A stretch of DNA of 64,000 nt from a virus (IMGVR_UViG_3300049486_000079:1-64000), one strand, 5' to 3'. Counted from the first letter of the stretch, positions 5,443 through 23,591 are shown. Notes: a model not told the origin generated them from the letters alone. Numbers and translations are program-made.

Positions 5443-5531
5443 CGGAGTGAGAGGGATTCGAACCCCCGGTGACCGTTTCCAGCCACAGCGATTTTCAAGA
5501 CCGCTGCCTTAATCCACTCGGCCATCACTCC
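5443..5531 (-). tRNA. tRNA-Ser(UGA)
   Basis: GGAGUGA/UCACUCC acceptor, GCGGU-CU-UGA-AA-AUCGC anticodon arm, long variable arm, GGUUCGAAUCC T arm, G73; followed by TCCA rather than CCA. Confidence 0.95.
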
Positions 5532-9521: not shown

Positions 9522-9665
9522 GTCGATTCTGAACGGACAGCTCAGGCCCTGCTCTGGGCTGTCCGCTCTTCTACACACGCCTTTGTGCGTAAAATCACGG
9601 ACCCGCTGGAGCCCCAAATGGAAACACTGCTTTTGAATAGCGAAAACCGCCCCATTTCGAGACCC

Positions 9666-9694
9666 TTGACTCCCGATGGGCGTGCCTTTAGAGC
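9666..9694 (+). promoter_or_regulatory. sigma70-type promoter for leaderless ruvB
   Basis: TTGACT-N17-TAGAGC; ATGs at 9699 and 9702. Confidence 0.6.
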
Positions 9695-9698
9695 TAAC

Positions 9699-10682
9699 AT
9701 GATGGACAAGATGGGAGGCGAGAAGGCGTTTGACAACGCGCTTCGCCCGAATAGCCTGAACGAGTACATCGGTCAGACCAAGCTCAAGGCAAACCTGGCC
9801 GATATGATCCAGTCCTCCCGCATCCGGGAGGCGGCAGTGGATCACGTTCTGCTCTCCGGCCCCCCGGGGCTCGGGAAGACCAGCATCGCAGCGGTCATCG
9901 CGTACGAGATGAAGACGAAGCTGCACCTCCTCACAGCTCCGGCTTTGTCCGGCGACAAGGGTCTGTCCGTGCTGGCGGCAACCTTCTCTCAAGTCGAGGA
10001 AGGGGATGTCGTGTTCATCGACGAGATCCACCGTCTGTCTAAGAAGCTCGAAGAGAGCCTCTACATGACCATGGAGGACAACCAATTCCCCTTCGTCTCT
10101 GGTAAGGGAAAGAACGCCTCGCTTAAGCATTTCCCCGTCGCCAAGCATACGCTCGTCGGAGCGACCACCTTGGCGCACGGGCTGACGCCGGCTCTTCGAG
10201 ACAGGTTCGGGTTTCACGCGAAACTCGATTTCTATGAGACCGCCGAGCTGCAACAGATCATTCAGAGGAGTGCGAAAATTCTGAACGTACACCTCGACAA
10301 GGCGGCGTCGCTGGAGGTGGCCAAGCGATCCCGGGGCACGCCCCGGATCGCAAACCAGTTGACCAAGCGTCTGCGAGACTACTCACTCTCGCGCTCGAAG
10401 GATCTGACTGCTCCTGTCGTCAAGCAAGCGCTGACGGAGATGGGCGTCGATGACATCGGGCTGAATGATCTCGACCGCAAGGTGATGGAGATCATCCTCA
10501 GCAAGTTCGACGGCGGACCGGTGGGGGTAAACACGCTGGCGGCTGCGGTAGGGGAGGCGGAACAAACGATCGTCGATATCGTCGAGCCTTACCTTATCCG
10601 CAACGGTTTCCTCGATCGAAGCCCTCGGGGGCGCGTGCTTACGCCACGAGGCGCCAAGCATCTCGCAGTGACTACTCACTGA
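9699..10682 (+). CDS. ruvB: Holliday junction branch-migration ATPase RuvB
   Basis: LRP..L.EYIGQ, GPPGLGKT, FIDEIHRL, GATT, LRDRFG, SRGTPRIAN, EPYL..RSPRGR; start 9699 or 9702. Confidence 0.97.
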   Translation: MMDKMGGEKAFDNALRPNSLNEYIGQTKLKANLADMIQSSRIREAAVDHVLLSGPPGLGKTSIAAVIAYEMKTKLHLLTAPALSGDKGLSVLAATFSQVEEGDVVFIDEIHRLSKKLEESLYMTMEDNQFPFVSGKGKNASLKHFPVAKHTLVGATTLAHGLTPALRDRFGFHAKLDFYETAELQQIIQRSAKILNVHLDKAASLEVAKRSRGTPRIANQLTKRLRDYSLSRSKDLTAPVVKQALTEMGVDDIGLNDLDRKVMEIILSKFDGGPVGVNTLAAAVGEAEQTIVDIVEPYLIRNGFLDRSPRGRVLTPRGAKHLAVTTH

Positions 10683-11859: not shown

Positions 11860-12041
11860 ACTCAAATAAAACAGAAGAAAAACAAACAGAAGCTGAGGCG
11901 ATTCTACGTAAAATCGATTCCCTAGCTCGACAGATCAAAGAGCTAGGCAACCGCTACAGTCAGATCCAAGAGGAGATCCAAAAAGACGTCTTCACGGTCC
12001 TTCAATTGGAGGAGGAAGAAGGACCACGCGGTCCCCACTGA
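11856..12041 (+). CDS. small coiled-coil protein
   Basis: MNSNKTEEK... heptad pattern. Confidence 0.55.
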   Translation: MNSNKTEEKQTEAEAILRKIDSLARQIKELGNRYSQIQEEIQKDVFTVLQLEEEEGPRGPH

Positions 12042-12502
12042 TACCGCCCTCGACGGTAAAGCCAGGGTGCAATAGGAGTCTCATTGCTCTGCCATAGGCC
12101 TCTCTTAGAGAGCCGGGCTTTGCGCTGAGACTCCTCCCACTCGATTCCTCCTGAGTAGGCGTCGTAGCTCCATGCATACCCCTCATCGACCATCTGACGA
12201 TTTATCGAGGGGGTCTTCCCTGGAAGATAGATTTCAGCAAGAATGCGCGCGTAACGGTCTCGCTTGAACGCGCGAACTTCGACCTCTTTGCCCATGATCT
12301 TATCCACAAGCACTGACCGCGACGCCAGACCAAAGGTCTGGTACTTTTCAGGAGCGTCGATGTACATCAGGCGAACCCGTTCCTTTTTACTATTTCTAAT
12401 AACCTCCACTGTATCCCCGTCTATCACCACTACGACTTTCGCGGTAAAGACATCCGGAGGGACAGCACAAATCCAAGCTGCTACAAGCGCAGATAGAATC
12501 AT
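12002..12502 (-). CDS. thermonuclease (SNase-family) with N-terminal hydrophobic signal
   Basis: VIDGDT, VRLMYIDAPE, DRYARILA, MVDEGYAW, KRGLW; start MILSALVAAW at 12502. Confidence 0.93.
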   Translation of the reverse strand: MILSALVAAWICAVPPDVFTAKVVVVIDGDTVEVIRNSKKERVRLMYIDAPEKYQTFGLASRSVLVDKIMGKEVEVRAFKRDRYARILAEIYLPGKTPSINRQMVDEGYAWSYDAYSGGIEWEESQRKARLSKRGLWQSNETPIAPWLYRRGRYQWGPRGPSSSSN

Positions 12503-12556: not shown

Positions 12557-12750
12557 GCGTAGGTGGCCGAGAGGAAAGGCACAGTAAAACGGACACTGTT
12601 GTACGCCTCGAAAGAGGTGGTCAGCGGGTTGCGGATGCACCTAGCAGCGCTGGAGGGCTGAAACGTCCCCAGGTTCGCGCAATGCCACTGCGGGGAAGCG
12701 CGTTTACCGTCGACCTGAAAGTCACGCGGGTTCAATTCCCGCCCTACGCA
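12557..12750 (+). ncRNA. tRNA-like RNA: class II tRNA body with the anticodon loop replaced by a ~110-nt four-hairpin domain
   Basis: Acceptor GCGUAGG/CCUACGC plus A73; U8; D arm GCC-GAGAGGAAA-GGC; variable arm GAC-CUGAAA-GUC; T arm GCGGG-UUCAAUU-CCCGC. Confidence 0.8.
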
Positions 12751-12753
12751 TCA

Positions 12754-13098
12754 ATGGCCCCCTTGTCTCAAAATCAGGATGAACACATCTTTGCCACAAA
12801 GGTCGACTTCACTGGCTACTTCACCGCAATAAGGAACAAGAAAATATGCACGGTGTCGATCAGAGAGACTGACTATATAATCATCAGTGCTCAAAAAGAA
12901 ACGCTTCTCAAGCTTTCCCAGTTTTATCAACTTGGATGGGAGGAGACGAACATATTGCCCATACGAGACGGCAAGGTGTTCCTACGGGAGTGCATGAAGC
13001 TCAGCCGTGTCGCATTCGATCCCGTGGTCACCGACAAGGGCCTCGTCTCGTTCAACGAGGTGCTGCCTACCCTCCCTCGACCTGCCGGTATCAATTGA
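12754..13098 (+). CDS. hypothetical protein
   Basis: MAPLSQNQ... ATG 3 nt after the tRNA-like RNA. Confidence 0.6.
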   Translation: MAPLSQNQDEHIFATKVDFTGYFTAIRNKKICTVSIRETDYIIISAQKETLLKLSQFYQLGWEETNILPIRDGKVFLRECMKLSRVAFDPVVTDKGLVSFNEVLPTLPRPAGIN

Positions 13099-14641: not shown

Positions 14642-15196
14642 TCAATGCAAATTGGCCGGCCCACGCCCCCGGGTCTTAAGCCCGTACTTGACGAGATCTT
14701 CGACAAACGCACTCAAACCGAGAGCCTTTACTGCATCCAGCGCTATAACACGAGCCTCTGACTTCTTATACCCTAGACTCATCAGGGCTTCCATGACCTC
14801 TTGAATCGTTTCTTTTGTGAGATCCGACTGATCACGTACGACCTTCTGCGCCTTGCCTCTCAACCGCGCCTTCGGCGTCAGCAAGACCTCCGAACTCGGG
14901 CTCAGATCGTGACTCTCGTCGCCAGAATCATGGTCCGTACTGTCCTCTGACGGTTCCTCCTCGTATTCCGAAGGCTCTTCCTCAGACTCCTCGACTTGAA
15001 CCTGCCGGCGATTAGAATCGGCCTGGCGAACACGGCTCTTAGCGGGTCGAACAGGAGCCTTTTTCTCCTCCAGCTCTGTCCTCAGATTGAACTTTTCCGG
15101 GACCGGATTCTGGTACGCATCGACCATGGCTTCCGCTATTGATTTCAGCAACGACCACATGCTCTGAGGGTAAGGCACGCCTAAGAGACGAGTCAA
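14642..15196 (-). CDS. protein with RuvA C-terminal (domain III) only
   Basis: EVMEALMSLGYKKSEARV...VEDLVKYGLK matches RuvA domain III; no OB or HhH domains; acidic linker. Confidence 0.75.
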   Translation of the reverse strand: MTRLLGVPYPQSMWSLLKSIAEAMVDAYQNPVPEKFNLRTELEEKKAPVRPAKSRVRQADSNRRQVQVEESEEEPSEYEEEPSEDSTDHDSGDESHDLSPSSEVLLTPKARLRGKAQKVVRDQSDLTKETIQEVMEALMSLGYKKSEARVIALDAVKALGLSAFVEDLVKYGLKTRGRGPANLH

Positions 15197-20015: not shown

Positions 20016-23000
20016 CTACTTACACTTGGAGTAGCCGCACGATGTGCAACGCACGCAGCCCTCCTGATAAACCAGCTCTGCTGCGCCACAGAGCTTACAG
20101 CCTTTCTCGCTCGCCGACCGGACCCCATCGATAATATAGTCTTTGAGGACCCTGGCCAGGCTCTTGGCGAGCGTATGGAACTCCGAGGAACGCTCTTTCA
20201 GAAGCTGTTCGACAATGTAATGGACGGGGACTCCGTGGCGAAGCGCAGTCGACGTCACCCGCGTAAAGGCAGAGTGGGTCGGATGATCGAGGGTCGCCAC
20301 AATGTCCTTGACCACGATCTTGCCTACATGGAGATCGTAACTGGAAGACGCCTTCTTGTTTTTGACAACAAGACCCTTCGGTAAATCTCTAGGAATATCA
20401 AGAAGGGAAGAAGACAAGCCGCCGAAAACCTCGTAGGGGCGGTTCTCTAAAAGGCCGACAATAAAGACCCACTCGGTGTTGCAATCATTCTCCCGTGTGT
20501 GAGTGAACTTGATATCGCAAGCCAGGAACGGAGGGCGCTTAGGCGCCTCGTGCTCTTCGAGACGTTGCGGCCGGGATCCTTTTTTGTTTTTCTGCGCTTC
20601 CGAAGCGTCCAACAAAACTCCCGAACGAGACCCCTCTCGATAAATCGTGAAGCCCTTGCATCCTGCCTGCCACGCTCGGAAATAGACATTGCTGACCAGC
20701 TCTCGTGTCGCTTCCTTTGGAAGGTTCGCCGTCTTGCTGATGGAATGGGAAATCCAGCGCTGAGCCGCTGCCTGAATATCTACAGAAGCCATCCAGTCGA
20801 CATCGCGAGAGGTCGCCTTCCAATAAGGGCTTTCTTCGACGTCTTTCTTTCCGGTCACCTCCATCCACTTCTCAAAGCCAGGATGATAGACCGTGTATTC
20901 CTGCCATTTATCTCCAATTTCATCCACGAAGTCGACTCTGACGTTCGGGTTGTCTCCCCGGACTTTCCGTCTCCGTGTGTGTTTCAAGAGATAAACAGGC
21001 TCAATTCCAGAGGTCGTACGGGTAAGCGTCGATACCGATCCTACAGGAGCCGTTGTCGTCGTCGCGATATTCCGTCTTCCATAGAGACGCCACAGAGCAT
21101 AGACATCAGGCGAGGCATGGAAAATTCGATTAAGGTACGGATTATCCTGCTCGCGATCATGACGAAAGACGGGGAAGGCCCCTCTCTCCTTTGCGAGAAG
21201 GCAACTCTGCATCTCTACAGCGCATCCTAGAGCCCCGTAGATGGCCTCGGTCATCTCAATCGACTCTGGAGAGCCGTATCGAAGATTCAAGGCCGCCAGG
21301 GTGTCTCCGAGCGCTGTGACCCCTAGCCCCGTACGTCGACCCCGCTCATTCGCCGCACGCACCTTGTGCCAGAGGCTCAGCTCGATAGCCTTGATCTCCT
21401 CGGACTCTGCATCCGATTCTACCTTGGCAATAATTCGATCGAGCTTCTCCAGCTCCAGATCGACAAGATCGTCCATGAGCCGCTGAGCTTTCTGGGCATG
21501 CTCCTTAAACAACTCGAAATCGAAATAGGCGTCGGGCTCGAACGCCCTCTCCACATACGAGATTGTATTCAACACCATCAAACGGCATGCATCGTAAGGA
21601 GAGAGCGGGATCTCTGCACAATTAGATACGAGTACGCCCCCTGTCCAATACGTGTGCTCTTCGCAATCCACGGTGAGGTCGAAGACCTCATGGACCCCGC
21701 ACACTTCCGTCGAAAGAATCGGAAGTGTTTCCTGATCCCGGAAGCGCTCGCTGATCCAGTTAAGCGAAGCGATACGATCGACCGCTGCCTGACGATCTTT
21801 CTGAATAAACCCGATCAGATCACGGAAGCGAGCGCAATCTTCTCCGATGGACAGCTCGTGGCCGTCCACACTCTCATAGACATTCCCCTGCTCGTCGGTA
21901 AACAGCCGCGTCTGCTGCAATGAATAGACAGAATTAATCCCCAAGGTCGAAAGGAGGTGCTGGACAGAGAAGATCAGCTCGGAGCTAGTGCTGCGGAGAA
22001 ACACGCGCGAACGCTTTGGCGATTCGTAGACACGTCCCAAGGTGGAGAAGAGCCCTCGAAGAAAGCCGCGTGTCTGCTCCTCAGAGCCCACCATGTACTC
22101 TGAGGGAACAGGACGCAGCTCTGGGACTGTCCTGACCGCCTTCTGAACCGAAGCAGACAAATCACAAGGCCTCAATCGCCAAAAAAACTCATTCCCTCGT
22201 AGCTTCTCATCCACAAAGGACCGCACGGTCCGATCTTTGAAGAGATCTTCCAAATCATTGGCACCTACGAATAAAGCATCGCACAAAGCACGCGTGTCGA
22301 AAAAACCCGCGCCGACCAAGAGACCGTCCCTGAGAGCAGCAGGATCGACTTCTTTTTCGGCATCGATCTTTTCCTTGGGGGAATAGGCATTATCAATAGA
22401 GGTCGCATAGCGCACCTCGACCTTCTCCCGTGCCTGAACGACGCGATGCTCTTCCGTGCCGTAGAAAACTCCTGCGGCAGTCCGGTAACCGAAGACAGGC
22501 TTAAGCCCTGTGCTCCATTTATTCAGGACGCGCGTCCATTTCTTGCCCGACCAGATCACATCGCCTATCTGAAGCTGCCCTATCGACTTCAGCCCTTTGG
22601 GCGTGAGCACAAGAGCCCAGGCCGGCTGACAAGGATTGGTAGAATGCGACTTGAATCCTTCCTCCTCATAGCAATCAGAAGGGGTCTCGCGCCGAATCGT
22701 ATCCCAGAATAAAAGCCCCGGCTCCGCGCTATCCCAAGCAGCATCGATAATCTTGTCCCAGATCTCTCTTGCCCGCACCGTACGAACAATCTTCGGATCC
22801 GGAACATCTATCGGCCACTGAAGCTGGAAATCCTGATCGTCCTGAACCGCTCTCATGAAGTCATCGGTAATCCGGATCGAGAGATTCGCTCCTGTGACCT
22901 TTTTACGATCTCGCTTGATATCGACGAAGGTCAGAATCTCGGGATGCTTAATATGAATCGAAAGCATCAACGCGCCACGACGACCTCCCTGAGCGACCTC

Positions 23001-23591
23001 ACGGCAGGTATTAGAGAATCGCTCCATGAAAATACTAATGCCGTCTGTCGTGCGCGCCGCGTTTGCCGTCTTCATGCCCTTCGGACGGATACTGGAGATA
23101 TCGAAACCGACACCCCCACGACGCTTCATAATCTGCGCTTGTTCTTGATCTGTGAAAAGGATACCAGAGTAGCTGTCTGTCGGCGTAGGGAGAACGTAGC
23201 AATTACTAGCGCTCTCGTAGGTGTAGTTGTTCCCGATCGCGTGCATGGGAGATCCCTGGGCGACGACATATCGGAACGAATCCATGAGGCTAAATATCTC
23301 GTCCTCCGAAAGACCATTGGGGTATTTTGCCTCGATACGAGCAAACTCTCTGGCAAGCCTCCGGTGCATGTCCTGTGGCGTCAGCTCGACAAACCGCCCC
23401 TCCTGATCTTGTAGCGCGTATTTGTCGGTGAAAACATCGGCTGCTAACTGATCTCCATGAAAATAAGCGAGAGACGCCTCATAGACCTCTTGGCGAGTGT
23501 AATAAGAATCTCTTGCTTTTGCAGGCTCTGGAAAGGAAGGGAAAGAAATAGCCGAAACCACAGAGAGACCTCCTGGTTGGTGAGGGGACAT
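20016..23591 (-). CDS. nrdJ: class II (AdoCbl-dependent) ribonucleotide reductase, intein-containing
   Basis: SNCYV, RRGGVG, QGGRRGALM, STNP|CAEIPL, GRRTGLG, RRNIA..TAPVG, SISKTANLP, GCKGFTIYREGSR, C-terminal Zn ribbon. Confidence 0.93.
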   Translation of the reverse strand: MSPHQPGGLSVVSAISFPSFPEPAKARDSYYTRQEVYEASLAYFHGDQLAADVFTDKYALQDQEGRFVELTPQDMHRRLAREFARIEAKYPNGLSEDEIFSLMDSFRYVVAQGSPMHAIGNNYTYESASNCYVLPTPTDSYSGILFTDQEQAQIMKRRGGVGFDISSIRPKGMKTANAARTTDGISIFMERFSNTCREVAQGGRRGALMLSIHIKHPEILTFVDIKRDRKKVTGANLSIRITDDFMRAVQDDQDFQLQWPIDVPDPKIVRTVRAREIWDKIIDAAWDSAEPGLLFWDTIRRETPSDCYEEEGFKSHSTNPCQPAWALVLTPKGLKSIGQLQIGDVIWSGKKWTRVLNKWSTGLKPVFGYRTAAGVFYGTEEHRVVQAREKVEVRYATSIDNAYSPKEKIDAEKEVDPAALRDGLLVGAGFFDTRALCDALFVGANDLEDLFKDRTVRSFVDEKLRGNEFFWRLRPCDLSASVQKAVRTVPELRPVPSEYMVGSEEQTRGFLRGLFSTLGRVYESPKRSRVFLRSTSSELIFSVQHLLSTLGINSVYSLQQTRLFTDEQGNVYESVDGHELSIGEDCARFRDLIGFIQKDRQAAVDRIASLNWISERFRDQETLPILSTEVCGVHEVFDLTVDCEEHTYWTGGVLVSNCAEIPLSPYDACRLMVLNTISYVERAFEPDAYFDFELFKEHAQKAQRLMDDLVDLELEKLDRIIAKVESDAESEEIKAIELSLWHKVRAANERGRRTGLGVTALGDTLAALNLRYGSPESIEMTEAIYGALGCAVEMQSCLLAKERGAFPVFRHDREQDNPYLNRIFHASPDVYALWRLYGRRNIATTTTAPVGSVSTLTRTTSGIEPVYLLKHTRRRKVRGDNPNVRVDFVDEIGDKWQEYTVYHPGFEKWMEVTGKKDVEESPYWKATSRDVDWMASVDIQAAAQRWISHSISKTANLPKEATRELVSNVYFRAWQAGCKGFTIYREGSRSGVLLDASEAQKNKKGSRPQRLEEHEAPKRPPFLACDIKFTHTRENDCNTEWVFIVGLLENRPYEVFGGLSSSLLDIPRDLPKGLVVKNKKASSSYDLHVGKIVVKDIVATLDHPTHSAFTRVTSTALRHGVPVHYIVEQLLKERSSEFHTLAKSLARVLKDYIIDGVRSASEKGCKLCGAAELVYQEGCVRCTSCGYSKCK
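21621..22631 (-). mobile_element. intein (337 aa) with degenerate LAGLIDADG-like domain
   Basis: Begins CQPAWALV after STNP and ends VFDLTV..EHTYWTGGVLVSN before Cys; contains a TEEH block-B motif. Confidence 0.9.

What the first reader, a model, noticed from the sequence alone, without database searches (positions are those of the whole stretch)
12557..12750. Anticodon-less tRNA: a class II tRNA body carrying a four-hairpin domain in place of the anticodon loop
Seen in sequence: a perfect 7-bp acceptor (GCGUAGG 12557-63 / CCUACGC 12743-49), discriminator A, U8, a D arm with the GG dinucleotide, a variable stem-loop (GAC-CUGAAA-GUC) and a canonical T arm. The anticodon stem is extended (CAGUAAAAC/GUUUACCG, with one mismatch and one bulge). 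It opens into ~110 nt that folds by eye into four hairpins: CUGUUG..GCCUC-GAAA-GAGGU..CAGCGG; GUUGC..GCAGC; CUGG.GGGC-UGAAAC-GUCC.CCAG; UUC..CGCA..UGCG..GAA. No excision restores a normal YU-NNN-R loop. Established: bacterial LeuRS uses A73 and tRNA shape and largely ignores the anticodon, and tmRNA uses the same principle with AlaRS; this RNA lacks G3-U70. Inference: this may be an aminoacylatable or tRNA-mimicking phage RNA with a cargo domain, for example a decoy for anticodon nucleases, a ribosome/EF-Tu effector or an RNP scaffold. CCA is not encoded (ATCA follows), and the next ATG is 3 nt downstream, so 3' processing would also release a nearly leaderless mRNA.
Basis: partly seen in the sequence, partly recalled or inferred. 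Interest (0 to 1): 0.92.

Follow-up and report, generated by a model that had tools for sequence, protein, structure and literature searches.

The report
Anticodon-locked tRNA-like RNA family
This phage gene encodes a tRNA-shaped RNA that cannot read codons: its anticodon-like loop pairs with a conserved extra domain. It belongs to an uncatalogued family that I also found in other large phages, including the cultured Ralstonia phage RSP15, and in some Deinococcota chromosomes.

Summary
The tRNA-like body at 12557-12750 is real. Rfam and default ARAGORN miss it. With a conserved-motif scan and two covariance models I found about 25 homologs, 167-248 nt long. They come from metagenomes, four IMG/VR phages (one is the cultured Ralstonia phage RSP15, where it is unannotated) and 13 of 151 Deinococcota genomes. 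On the model-guided alignment 87% of cells pair, against 40-48% in slid controls, and 39 of 48 pairs show double changes.

A short hairpin survives at the anticodon-arm position, and its stem covaries in 12 different forms. The ~110-nt domain lies 3' of this hairpin, at the variable-arm position, not inside the anticodon loop. This pairing has compensatory changes in homologs.

No excision gives a normal anticodon loop. The domain is never absent, and it carries two near-invariant cores.

The bacterial copies mostly keep the alanine identity set (G3-U70, A73, encoded CCA). The window copy has G3-C70 and no CCA. Two phage copies lie next to a phage tmRNA gene.

Function is untested. My best reading is a non-decoding tRNA mimic matured by tRNA-processing enzymes.

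The parts
12557..12563 (+). Acceptor stem, 5' strand (GCGUAGG)
   Evidence: Pairs perfectly with 12743-12749. All 7 acceptor pairs show double compensatory changes across 22 homologs, and 98.6% of cells are paired.
12566..12580 (+). D arm (stem GCC/GGC, loop GAGAGGAAA with GG)
   Evidence: Sequence. The D stem covaries in the family, e.g. GUCU/GGGC against GGGC/GCCC (helix 2).
12582..12598 (+). Anticodon-arm-like hairpin: stem CAGU/ACUG, 7-nt loop AAACGGA (A at position 33, not U)
   Evidence: Homologs have the same local hairpin with 12 different complementary stems, including AUCGU/ACGAU, CCAGU/ACUGG, CACCG/CGGUG, CUGG/CCAG, GAUCC/GGGUC and CCCGC/GCGGG. Loops are 7-22 nt and always hold AAAACG-like letters.
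12587..12591 (+). Pseudoknot 5' strand (AAACG, in the hairpin loop)
   Evidence: Complementary to CGUUU at 12701-12705. Compensated in homologs: L018 CAACG/CGUUG, L038 AACAUG/CGUGUU, L061 AACAU/GUGUU, L005 AAAUG/CGUUU.
12604..12619 (+). Hairpin Pa (CGCCUC-GAAA-GAGGUG)
   Evidence: G49.U62 becomes G-C in L002. Homologs have a GNRA or GUAAAA hairpin at this place, with a covarying stem (helix 4).
12620..12626 (+). Helix Pv, 5' strand (GUCAGCG); pairs with 12708-12714
   Evidence: The only two changes seen in close strains (A12623G, T12710C) both turn non-Watson-Crick pairs of this helix into G-C. In L002 two changes improve the helix and one breaks a pair. The homologous helix covaries strongly in Deinococcota: GGGAC/GUUCC, GGGGC/GCUCC, GGAGC/GCUCC, GGGGC/GCCCC (helix 7).
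12627..12649 (+). Conserved core 1 (GGUUGCGGAUGCACCUAGCAGCG), with mini-hairpin UGC-GGAU-GCA at 12630-12639
   Evidence: UUGC..GCACCUA is near-invariant in 22 homologs. The mini-hairpin loop varies (GGAU, GGAA, AGUU, AGU) while its stem is kept (helix 8).
12650..12672 (+). Hairpin Ph (CUGG-A-GGGC-UGAAAC-GUCC-CCAG)
   Evidence: Predicted. G101.U110 becomes G-C in L002. Homologs have a variable-length hairpin here with a covarying stem (helix 9).
12644..12691 (+). Helix Px: GCAG 12644-47 with CUGC 12688-91. It encloses Ph and an unresolved stretch (12673-12687).
   Evidence: The nearest full-length relative, L025, has AACG/CGUU at the same place, so 3 of 4 pairs are doubly changed. L002 C132U gives G.U. 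This is a provisional assignment.
12693..12707 (+). Conserved core 2 (GGGAAGCGCGUUUAC), including the pseudoknot 3' strand CGUUU at 12701-12705
   Evidence: GGGAAGCGCGUU is invariant or nearly so in 22 homologs. For the pseudoknot covariation see the entry for 12587-12591.
12708..12714 (+). Helix Pv, 3' strand (CGUCGAC)
   Evidence: See the entry for 12620-12626.
12715..12725 (+). Connector to the T arm (CUGAAAGUCAC).
   Evidence: G156A in L002 breaks the proposed GAC/GUC stem. Homologs have unrelated connectors of 6-45 nt here.
12726..12742 (+). T arm (GCGGG-UUCAAUU-CCCGC)
   Evidence: This is the only part that Rfam's tRNA model aligns (13.8 bits). 98% of cells are paired in the family (helix 10).
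12743..12750 (+). Acceptor stem 3' strand (CCUACGC) and discriminator A12750. UCA follows, not CCA.
12754..13098 (+). ORF114. It starts 3 nt after the RNA on the same strand and has no Shine-Dalgarno sequence.
   Evidence: It is conserved with the same spacing in L002 (77% identity). The in-frame upstream ATG at 12682 is lost in L002. It is an orphan, with 2 relatives among 1.8 billion representatives, and has no Pfam or PHROG match. A link to the RNA is not shown.
12002..12502 (-). Divergent neighbour: staphylococcal-nuclease-fold gene
   Evidence: Pfam SNase, E 1.3e-20. This is context only.

Best explanation
The locus is a gene for a ~194-nt non-decoding tRNA-like RNA. It belongs to a conserved family that is not in Rfam.

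Shown by comparison:
- The RNA has a full tRNA upper body (acceptor, D and T arms).
- It has a short hairpin at the anticodon-arm position.
- A ~110-nt domain emerges where a class II variable arm would. The domain is built on a covarying stalk helix and carries two near-invariant cores.
- The 3' end of the domain (CGUUU) pairs with the loop of the anticodon-like hairpin (AAACG; A instead of U33). The would-be anticodon is therefore buried in an intramolecular codon-anticodon-like pseudoknot and cannot read mRNA.

Inferred:
- The tRNA body lets host RNase P, 3' trimming and the CCA-adding enzyme mature and stabilise the RNA. In the window this would also free the mRNA of the ORF that starts 3 nt downstream.
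- The mature RNA acts as a tRNA mimic that engages tRNA-binding machinery.
- In most bacterial members and three phage lineages the alanine identity set (G3-U70, A73) predicts charging by AlaRS.
- The window copy has G3-C70, so it probably acts uncharged or with another, unknown identity.

The molecular target (ribosome, a protein partner or a host toxin) is not established.
For: Family:
- A motif scan of metagenomes gave about 11 true homologs. Further members came from viral contigs and from a Deinococcus chromosome.
- Models R1 and R2 separate members (65-207 bits) from tRNAs and noise (36 bits or less).
- 13 of 151 Deinococcota genomes have one copy each.
- Ralstonia phage RSP15 has an unannotated copy at the head of its tRNA cluster.

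Structure:
- 87.2% of cells pair, against 40-48% when partners are slid. 39 of 48 pairs have double changes. No shuffle of 500 reached the observed values.
- Twelve different complementary stems occur at the anticodon-arm hairpin.
- The pseudoknot is compensated in L018, L038, L061 and L005.
- The stalk helix covaries.

Window lineage:
- 17 changes in L002 and 2 in close strains fit the model, with one exception.
- The RNA is several-fold more conserved than the flanking genes.

Non-decoding:
- A33 in the window and L018. Loops are 8-22 nt elsewhere.
- ARAGORN finds only non-canonical loops.

Alanine set:
- G3-U70, A73 and encoded CCA in 11 of 13 Deinococcota copies. G3-U70 also in L019/L026 and L035.
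Against: - There is no expression, processing or charging data. No RNA run holds the locus.
- The acceptor identity is not conserved in phage members (3:70 is G-C, A-U, C-G or U-A), so charging cannot be essential for all of them.
- The interior of the domain (12673-12692) is not resolved, and the Px helix rests on two lineages.
It shows some covariation (GG/CC against GU/AC) but fails in L019, L026, L038 and L059.
- The comparative model is 14 kcal/mol above the unconstrained MFE, before counting the pseudoknot.
- No consensus promoter or terminator was found.
Confidence: 0.6

Rival explanations
1. Tag-less relative by function of tmRNA. The RNA, alanylated where G3-U70 is present, enters ribosomal A sites that hold no mRNA. 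It can do so because it brings its own codon-anticodon duplex (ACG:CGU), as SmpB does for tmRNA or pseudoknot I does for the CrPV IRES. It then rescues, blocks or hijacks stalled ribosomes, or competes with host tmRNA.
For: - The alanine set G3-U70/A73/CCA is conserved in 11 of 13 bacterial copies, and G3-U70 in three phage lineages.
- The loop-to-domain pairing always includes an ACG:CGU-like triplet at the anticodon position in the 7-nt-loop members.
- The gene lies about 290 nt from a phage tmRNA in L026 and about 900 nt from one in the 306-kb phage G003.
- A CDS-less tmRNA of mycobacteriophage DS6A is reported to inhibit host tmRNA (PMC11915505).
- No SmpB is encoded by the carrier phages.
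Against: - The window copy and half of the phage lineages have lost G3-U70.
- Most loops are not 7 nt.
- The tmRNA model scores the RNA about 20 bits, like any tRNA.
- tmRNA adjacency may only reflect that both genes sit in tRNA clusters.
- There are no ribosome data.
Confidence: 0.13
2. The tRNA is only a scaffold. The functional part is the conserved domain, acting as a protein sponge, riboregulator or ligand sensor. The tRNA body serves only for excision from polycistronic transcripts and for stability. In the window it doubles as a punctuation mark that releases the ORF114 mRNA.
For: - Acceptor sequences vary freely while the two cores are near-invariant.
- Genes sit in tRNA arrays (L025, L035-L038, RSP15).
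- ORF114 starts 3 nt after the RNA in both the window and L002.
- T4 species 1 and 2 RNAs are a precedent for stable non-tRNA RNAs matured in a tRNA cluster (annotation).
Against: - It does not explain why the alanine identity set and an encoded CCA are kept in bacterial copies.
- It does not explain why the anticodon-like hairpin and its pseudoknot covary rather than decay.
Confidence: 0.17
3. Decoy or sponge for tRNA-targeting weapons such as anticodon nucleases, acceptor-end-modifying toxins or tRNA-sensing defence systems.
For: The RNA is enriched in large phages that carry their own tRNA sets. It is tRNA-shaped yet useless for decoding.
Against: - The anticodon-like loop is buried, which is poor bait for anticodon nucleases.
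- The Deinococcota copies I examined (L040, L050) lie among ordinary metabolic genes such as purF and an epimerase, not in evident defence islands.
- No partner gene is conserved beside the RNA.
Confidence: 0.06
4. Intron-containing tRNA gene. The ~110-nt domain is spliced out, by itself or by proteins, to give a decoding tRNA.
For: ARAGORN with introns allowed returns tRNA-Thr(cgt) with a 113-nt intron, or tRNA-Arg(acg) with a 111-nt intron. Earlier notes of this scan report odd introns in phage tRNAs.
Against: - Both ARAGORN solutions lack U33 and put a class I identity on a body with a long extra arm.
- The domain is too small for a group I intron, and nothing in Rfam matches.
- In homologs the loop left after any excision is 8-22 nt.
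- Bacterial copies keep the same domain.
- No RtcB is found in three carrier phages.
- No contig joins across the insert.
Confidence: 0.03
5. Decaying pseudo-tRNA with a chance insertion.
For: Standard finders miss it.
Against: There is strong purifying selection and covariation across phages and a bacterial phylum.
Confidence: 0.01

Closest known systems
tmRNA (SsrA, Rfam RF00023), including CDS-less forms such as that of mycobacteriophage DS6A (PMC11915505)
   Same: It has tRNA-like ends with acceptor and T arms and a large structured insert between them. G3-U70/A73/CCA is present in most bacterial members and G3-U70 in three phage lineages. It does not decode. It occurs in phages, twice beside a true tmRNA.
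   Different: It has a full D stem and an anticodon-arm-like hairpin. It has no tag reading frame and no PK1-PK4 architecture. The tmRNA model scores it about 20 bits, below the 47-bit gathering score. The window copy lacks G3-U70.
Class II tRNAs and long-armed allo-tRNAs (Mukai et al. 2017, PMC5389517)
   Same: The extra domain leaves the body at the variable-arm position. Acceptor/T geometry is 7/5. D and T loops are canonical.
   Different: The arm is ~110 nt rather than at most about 25 nt and carries conserved cores. It has A33 or oversized loops. The anticodon-position loop is paired intramolecularly. The tRNA model RF00005 aligns only the T arm.
Phage T4 species 1 and 2 stable RNAs (rnaC, rnaD) of the tRNA cluster
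   Same: They are stable non-tRNA RNAs of unknown function, encoded among phage tRNA genes, with a tRNA-like T arm and acceptor end (annotation and sequence).
   Different: There is no homology to the family cores. R2 scores rnaC 21 bits, the level of ordinary tRNAs.
Bacterial Y RNA YrlA and b7a-tRNA of RNA-repair operons (Chen 2014, PMC4201824; Burroughs and Aravind 2016, as cited in 10.1101/312249)
   Same: They are non-decoding tRNA mimics with T-arm and D-arm mimicry.
   Different: In YrlA the RNA ends lie in the Ro-binding stem, a permuted topology. No TROVE/Rsr or RtcB gene is found in the carrier phages, and Band-7 occurs in only one of them, 16 kb away.
Codon-anticodon mimics: CrPV IGR IRES pseudoknot I; T-box Specifier-anticodon pairing (from general knowledge)
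   Same: A pre-formed ACG:CGU-type duplex at the tip of an anticodon-like stem.
   Different: Here both strands are in one tRNA-shaped RNA of phages and bacteria. This is a resemblance only and was not tested.

Membership tests
tRNA (RF00005), decoding | 7-nt anticodon loop with U33 and a free anticodon | tested here: not met
   The loop is AAACGGA with A33 and is paired to 12701-05. Homolog loops are 7-22 nt. RF00005 aligns only the T arm at 13.8 bits.
tRNA (RF00005), decoding | Acceptor, D and T arms with canonical loops | tested here: met
   (helices 1, 2, 10).
tmRNA (RF00023) | G3-U70 with A73 and CCA (alanine identity) | tested here: not met
   The window has G3-C70 and no encoded CCA. 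The set is met in 11 of 13 Deinococcota copies and G3-U70 in L019, L026 and L035.
tmRNA (RF00023) | Tag reading frame with resume and stop codons, and the pseudoknot series | tested here: not met
   ARAGORN finds no tmRNA. The RF00023 score is about 20 bits against a 47-bit threshold. The stretch after GCACCUA is conserved as RNA helices, not as codons.
Group I intron in a tRNA | Group I core (P3-P9) and splice sites that restore the anticodon loop | tested here: not met
   No RF00028 match even at E 10 or less. The insert is ~110 nt. No excision gives a canonical loop.
Archaeal/eukaryal BHB tRNA intron | Bulge-helix-bulge at the exon-intron borders; a host with a splicing endonuclease | tested here: inconclusive
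   No BHB motif is apparent by eye. The phage encodes bacterial-type RuvB and a RuvA_C-like protein, and relatives infect Ralstonia or reside in Deinococcota. I ran no dedicated BHB search.
YrlA / Y RNA | Ro60 (TROVE) partner gene and a Ro-binding stem formed by the RNA ends | tested here: not met
   TROVE is absent from G000, G003, G004 and G042. The RNA ends form an acceptor stem.
b7a-tRNA of Band-7/RtcB repair operons | Location in an operon with an SPFH/Band-7 gene and usually RtcB | tested here: not met
   RtcB is absent from three carrier phages. Band_7 is found only in G003, 16 kb away. The Deinococcus neighbours examined are purF, an epimerase and others.
New family defined here (models R1/R2) | tRNA body, anticodon-position hairpin with an A-rich CG loop, cores UUGC..GCACCUA and GGGAAGCGCGUU, and the loop:CGUUU pseudoknot | tested here: met
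   R2 scores the window 86.5 bits, E 4e-22. All motifs are present.

The most novel reading that the evidence does not exclude
This would be a second kind of transfer-messenger-like RNA. It is a tRNA-shaped RNA, alanine-charged in its ancestral form, that carries its own codon paired to its anticodon. It could therefore enter mRNA-free ribosomal A sites without SmpB. Some Deinococcota would use it for ribosome rescue or alanine tailing. Large phages would have captured it, sometimes stripped of its alanine identity as in this window, to block or redirect host ribosome rescue.
Probability: 0.1. Interest if true: 0.92.

Novelty: new variant of a known kind. Interest (0 to 1): 0.72.

Why it matters
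Non-decoding tRNA mimics such as tmRNA and Y RNAs have each opened a chapter of RNA biology. This family is not in Rfam 15. It is unannotated in the one cultured phage that carries it. I did not find it in the open literature I searched.

It is shared by unrelated large phages and by a bacterial phylum. It combines three features that point to a specific job at tRNA-binding machinery: a complete tRNA body, a frequently preserved alanine identity, and an anticodon buried in a self-made codon-anticodon duplex.

It is directly testable, because Ralstonia phage RSP15 and Deinococcus strains are culturable. For annotation, it shows that 'tRNA with a giant intron' calls from permissive tRNA finders can hide a distinct RNA class.

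Tried and rejected
- Exact 20-30-mers of the insert found nothing in viral contigs. A pattern built on the variable arm and T arm also found nothing there.
- BLAST of the locus against cultured phages gave no match.
- I looked for relatives through the neighbouring proteins. ORF114 and the SNase gene have no relatives in IMG/VR. ORF114 has only one true relative anywhere. The close SNase homolog's contig ends 39 nt before the RNA would begin.
- tblastn with RuvB found only bacterial-like RuvB in unrelated records.
- No RNA holder was listed for the locus, so nothing can be said about expression. The runs I laid were DNA contigs only, with no joints.
- RNAalifold on the window plus L002 alone gave a partly different fold (a 65-70/92-97 helix and a 114-119/156-161 helix). 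I set it aside after the wider family showed the stalk architecture. It is not strictly excluded.
- MAFFT and the covariance-model alignments misplace the anticodon-position hairpin and the pseudoknot columns in non-Deinococcota rows. I therefore read those two elements from the sequences. An automatic search for them was confounded by alternative GGAAA/UUUCC pairings.
- The genome contigs pattern scan returned only one of the Deinococcota carriers that the genome search later found. That scan cannot be used to argue absence.
- The RNA-repair (b7a), Y RNA and SmpB contexts were tested and not found.
- T4 rnaC is not homologous.
- Literature searches found no description of the family.

Full report
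**1. Observation**

The window comes from a 92.8-kb IMG/VR virus record from a freshwater sediment. Its estimated completeness is 54%.

At 12557-12750 (+) the sequence has the following features:
- a perfect 7-bp acceptor stem and discriminator A;
- U8 and a D arm with GG;
- a canonical T arm;
- UCA, not CCA, after the discriminator, then an ATG.

Default ARAGORN and Rfam 15 do not call it. At a relaxed threshold only the T arm aligns to the tRNA model, at 13.8 bits.

The questions are what the ~110 nt in the middle are, and where they are attached.

**2. Selection in close relatives**

Contigs of related strains from three other freshwater runs were laid on the locus.

| Stretch | Changes |
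|---|---|
| RNA (179 nt covered by one contig) | 2 (A12623G, T12710C) |
| Next 80 nt of ORF, same contig | at least 7 |
| Neighbouring gene stretch | 15 in 259 nt |
| Neighbouring gene stretch | 24 in 149 nt |

A more distant relative, L002, was reached through the downstream ORF (77% protein identity). It starts inside the RNA and differs at 17 of 167 positions.

**3. A family**

The 11-mer GGAUGCACCUA is unchanged between the window and L002. I scanned metagenomes for it, followed 72-102 nt later by a T-loop. This gave 31 loci, of which about 11 are clear homologs. A second pattern that joins the two conserved cores found four IMG/VR phages and a Deinococcus chromosome.

A covariance model (R1) and then a structure-aware model (R2) separate members from everything else. 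Members score 65-207 bits. Ordinary tRNAs and noise score 36 bits or less. The window scores 86.5 bits with R2 (E 4e-22).

Distribution:
- Each carrier phage has one copy.
- 13 of 151 sampled Deinococcota genomes have one chromosomal copy. The two contexts I examined, L040 (an epimerase among others) and L050 (purF), are unrelated.
- One IMG/VR hit is the cultured Ralstonia phage RSP15 (Ackermannviridae). There the RNA lies unannotated at the head of the tRNA cluster.
- Other phage copies also sit in tRNA arrays (L025, L035-L038).
- Two copies lie next to a bona fide phage tmRNA (L026, and the 306-kb phage G003).

Rfam has no family for any member.

**4. Structure**

On the R2-guided alignment of 22 sequences, 87.2% of cells form standard pairs. 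The figure is 40-48% when the 3' partners are slid by 1-3 columns. 39 of 48 pairs show changes on both sides. None of 500 shuffles reaches the observed values. All seven acceptor pairs covary.

The key correction concerns the anticodon region. Every lineage has a local hairpin right after the D arm, with 12 different complementary stems. Examples:

| Lineage | Stem |
|---|---|
| window | CAGU/ACUG |
| L025 | AUCGU/ACGAU |
| L018 | CCAGU/ACUGG |
| L005 | CACCG/CGGUG |
| L020 | CUGG/CCAG |
| L019 | GAUCU/GGAUC |
| L026 | GAUCC/GGGUC |
| L038 | CCCU/AGGG |
| Deinococcota | CCGG/CCGG |
| L059 | CCCGC/GCGGG |
| L035 | CAGG/CCUG |
| L060 | CAGC/GCUG |

The loop is 7-22 nt and always begins with an A-run followed by CG. 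The large domain therefore follows an anticodon-arm-like hairpin. It occupies the variable-arm position.

The loop letters AAACG are complementary to CGUUU, directly after the invariant GGGAAGCG of the domain. This pairing is compensated in four lineages:
- L018: CAACG/CGUUG
- L038: AACAUG/CGUGUU
- L061: AACAU/GUGUU
- L005: AAAUG/CGUUU

In the 7-nt-loop members (window, L018) it puts ACG at positions 34-36, paired to CGU, with A in place of U33.

The domain itself stands on a stalk helix that covaries well. Deinococcota forms are GGGAC/GUUCC, GGGGC/GCUCC, GGAGC/GCUCC and GGGGC/GCCCC. L019 and L026 have 11-bp versions with two double changes.

In the window the stalk is 12620-26 with 12708-14. 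The only two substitutions seen in close strains both convert non-Watson-Crick pairs of this helix into G-C. In L002 two substitutions improve it and one breaks a pair.

The remaining elements:
- a GNRA-type hairpin (12604-19);
- a mini-hairpin inside core 1;
- a variable hairpin (12650-72);
- a provisional helix, 12644-47 with 12688-91;
- a possible CCU/GGG closure of the two cores.

Part of the interior (12673-92) is unresolved.

A second conformer is possible. In it the A-run plus two letters of the hairpin's 5' strand pair with CGUUU plus two letters. It shows some covariation but fails in four lineages. I treat it as a possible alternative state.

**5. What it is not**

- **Not a decoding tRNA.** It has A33, oversized loops and a buried loop.
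- **Not a group I intron.** There is no Rfam hit at E 10 or less, the insert is ~110 nt, and no excision restores a loop.
- **Not tmRNA.** There is no tag frame, a full D stem, and the RF00023 score is about 20 bits.
- **Not a Y RNA or a b7a-tRNA.** The carrier phages have no TROVE, RtcB or SmpB. Band-7 is present in one only, 16 kb away.
- **Not T4 species 1 RNA.** R2 scores it 21 bits.

**6. Identity elements**

Eleven of 13 Deinococcota copies read GGGGGAG...CUCCUCC-A-CCA. This gives G3-U70, A73 and an encoded CCA. G3-U70 is the established main AlaRS determinant (general knowledge).

G3-U70 is also present in L019, L026 and L035. Other phage lineages have A-U, G-C, C-G or U-A at 3:70. A-U and G-C, the window's pair, are each one step from G-U. 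Most phage copies lack an encoded CCA.

I read this as an ancestrally alanine-accepting RNA whose charging is dispensable, or deliberately lost, in several phage lineages, including this one. That is an inference.

**7. Mechanism**

Shown:
- a conserved tRNA-shaped RNA whose anticodon-position loop is sequestered by its own extra domain.

Inferred:
- maturation by RNase P, 3' trimming and the CCA-adding enzyme, from its placement in tRNA arrays and its tRNA ends;
- in the window, the same cuts would release the ORF114 message. ORF114 starts 3 nt downstream in both the window and L002, has no Shine-Dalgarno sequence and is an orphan;
- action as a tRNA mimic.

Among the specific targets, I rank them as follows:
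1. The generic reading: "mimic at tRNA-binding machinery, target unknown".
2. "The tRNA body is only a scaffold for a functional domain".
3. A tmRNA-like role at empty A sites. This is suggested by the alanine set, the self-made codon-anticodon duplex and the tmRNA adjacency.
4. A decoy for tRNA-targeting toxins.

Splicing and pseudogene readings are very unlikely.

**8. Novelty and limits**

I found no description of the family in Rfam 15, in the RSP15 record or in the papers searched.

Earlier notes of this scan describe analogous oddities. One is a tag-less tmRNA-shaped RNA in a marine jumbo phage that shares short words with this family's core. Another is A33 tRNAs with giant arms. I took these only as leads.

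Limits:
- There are no expression or biochemical data.
- Deinococcota sequences dominate the alignment.
- Alignments were partly fitted to the model.
- The host of the window's phage is unknown.

Noticed in passing
window 20016-23591 (-): The ribonucleotide reductase large-subunit ORF is 1191 aa. Its PHROG matches are split into residues 48-322 and 732-986. The ~400-aa gap suggests an intein or another insertion.
   Followed up: no
window 9585-10682 (+) and 14642-15196 (-): The phage encodes a full-length RuvB (RuvB_N, lid and C domains, E 2e-51) and a small protein with a RuvA_C domain. They flank the RNA locus. The pair is also present on the relatives' contigs L002 and L003.
   Followed up: partly
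window 5443-5531 (-): The only ordinary tRNA in the 92.8-kb record is tRNA-Ser(UGA). Unlike most relatives, the tRNA-like RNA here is not part of a tRNA array.
   Followed up: yes
L020 527-714 (-): A group I intron match (RF00028, 59.7 bits) lies about 50 nt downstream of the family member at L020 766-985 (-). I did not examine what it interrupts.
   Followed up: no
L026 95-170, 1377-1758, 2045-2264 (+): One 2.4-kb phage contig carries a suppressor-type tRNA with anticodon CUA (called tRNA-Pyl), a full tmRNA (117 bits) and the family RNA. This may be a stop-codon-recoding phage.
   Followed up: no
L039 3560-3710 (+), Jiangellaceae MAG contig: An intergenic element after a ThiS/MoaD-like ORF carries both core motifs (GGAUGCACCUAU ... 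CAAGGGAAGCGCG) inside a long hairpin. It has no tRNA body. R1 does not match it in the whole-genome search, and Rfam has nothing. It may be chance or a stand-alone form of the domain.
   Followed up: partly
L002 1 and L003 1-39 (same JGI sample): Two contigs of the same relative both end at or inside the RNA gene, so the assembly breaks there. The cause is unknown; strain variation or coverage are possibilities.
   Followed up: no
window 12754-13098 (+): The Atlas model of ORF114 weakly resembles SseB / DUF2750-type folds (TM 0.58-0.61). This is a lead only.
   Followed up: partly
G003:C1:285825-286172 (-): The complete 306-kb jumbo phage encodes its own tmRNA (190 bits) about 900 nt downstream of the family RNA, but no SmpB.
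   Followed up: partly
L061 1501-1697 (+), Deinococcota genome G113: This is the lowest-scoring bacterial copy with R1. Its T arm and acceptor are degraded, and it has changes in both cores. It may be a decaying copy. Its loop and tail changes still compensate each other.
   Followed up: partly
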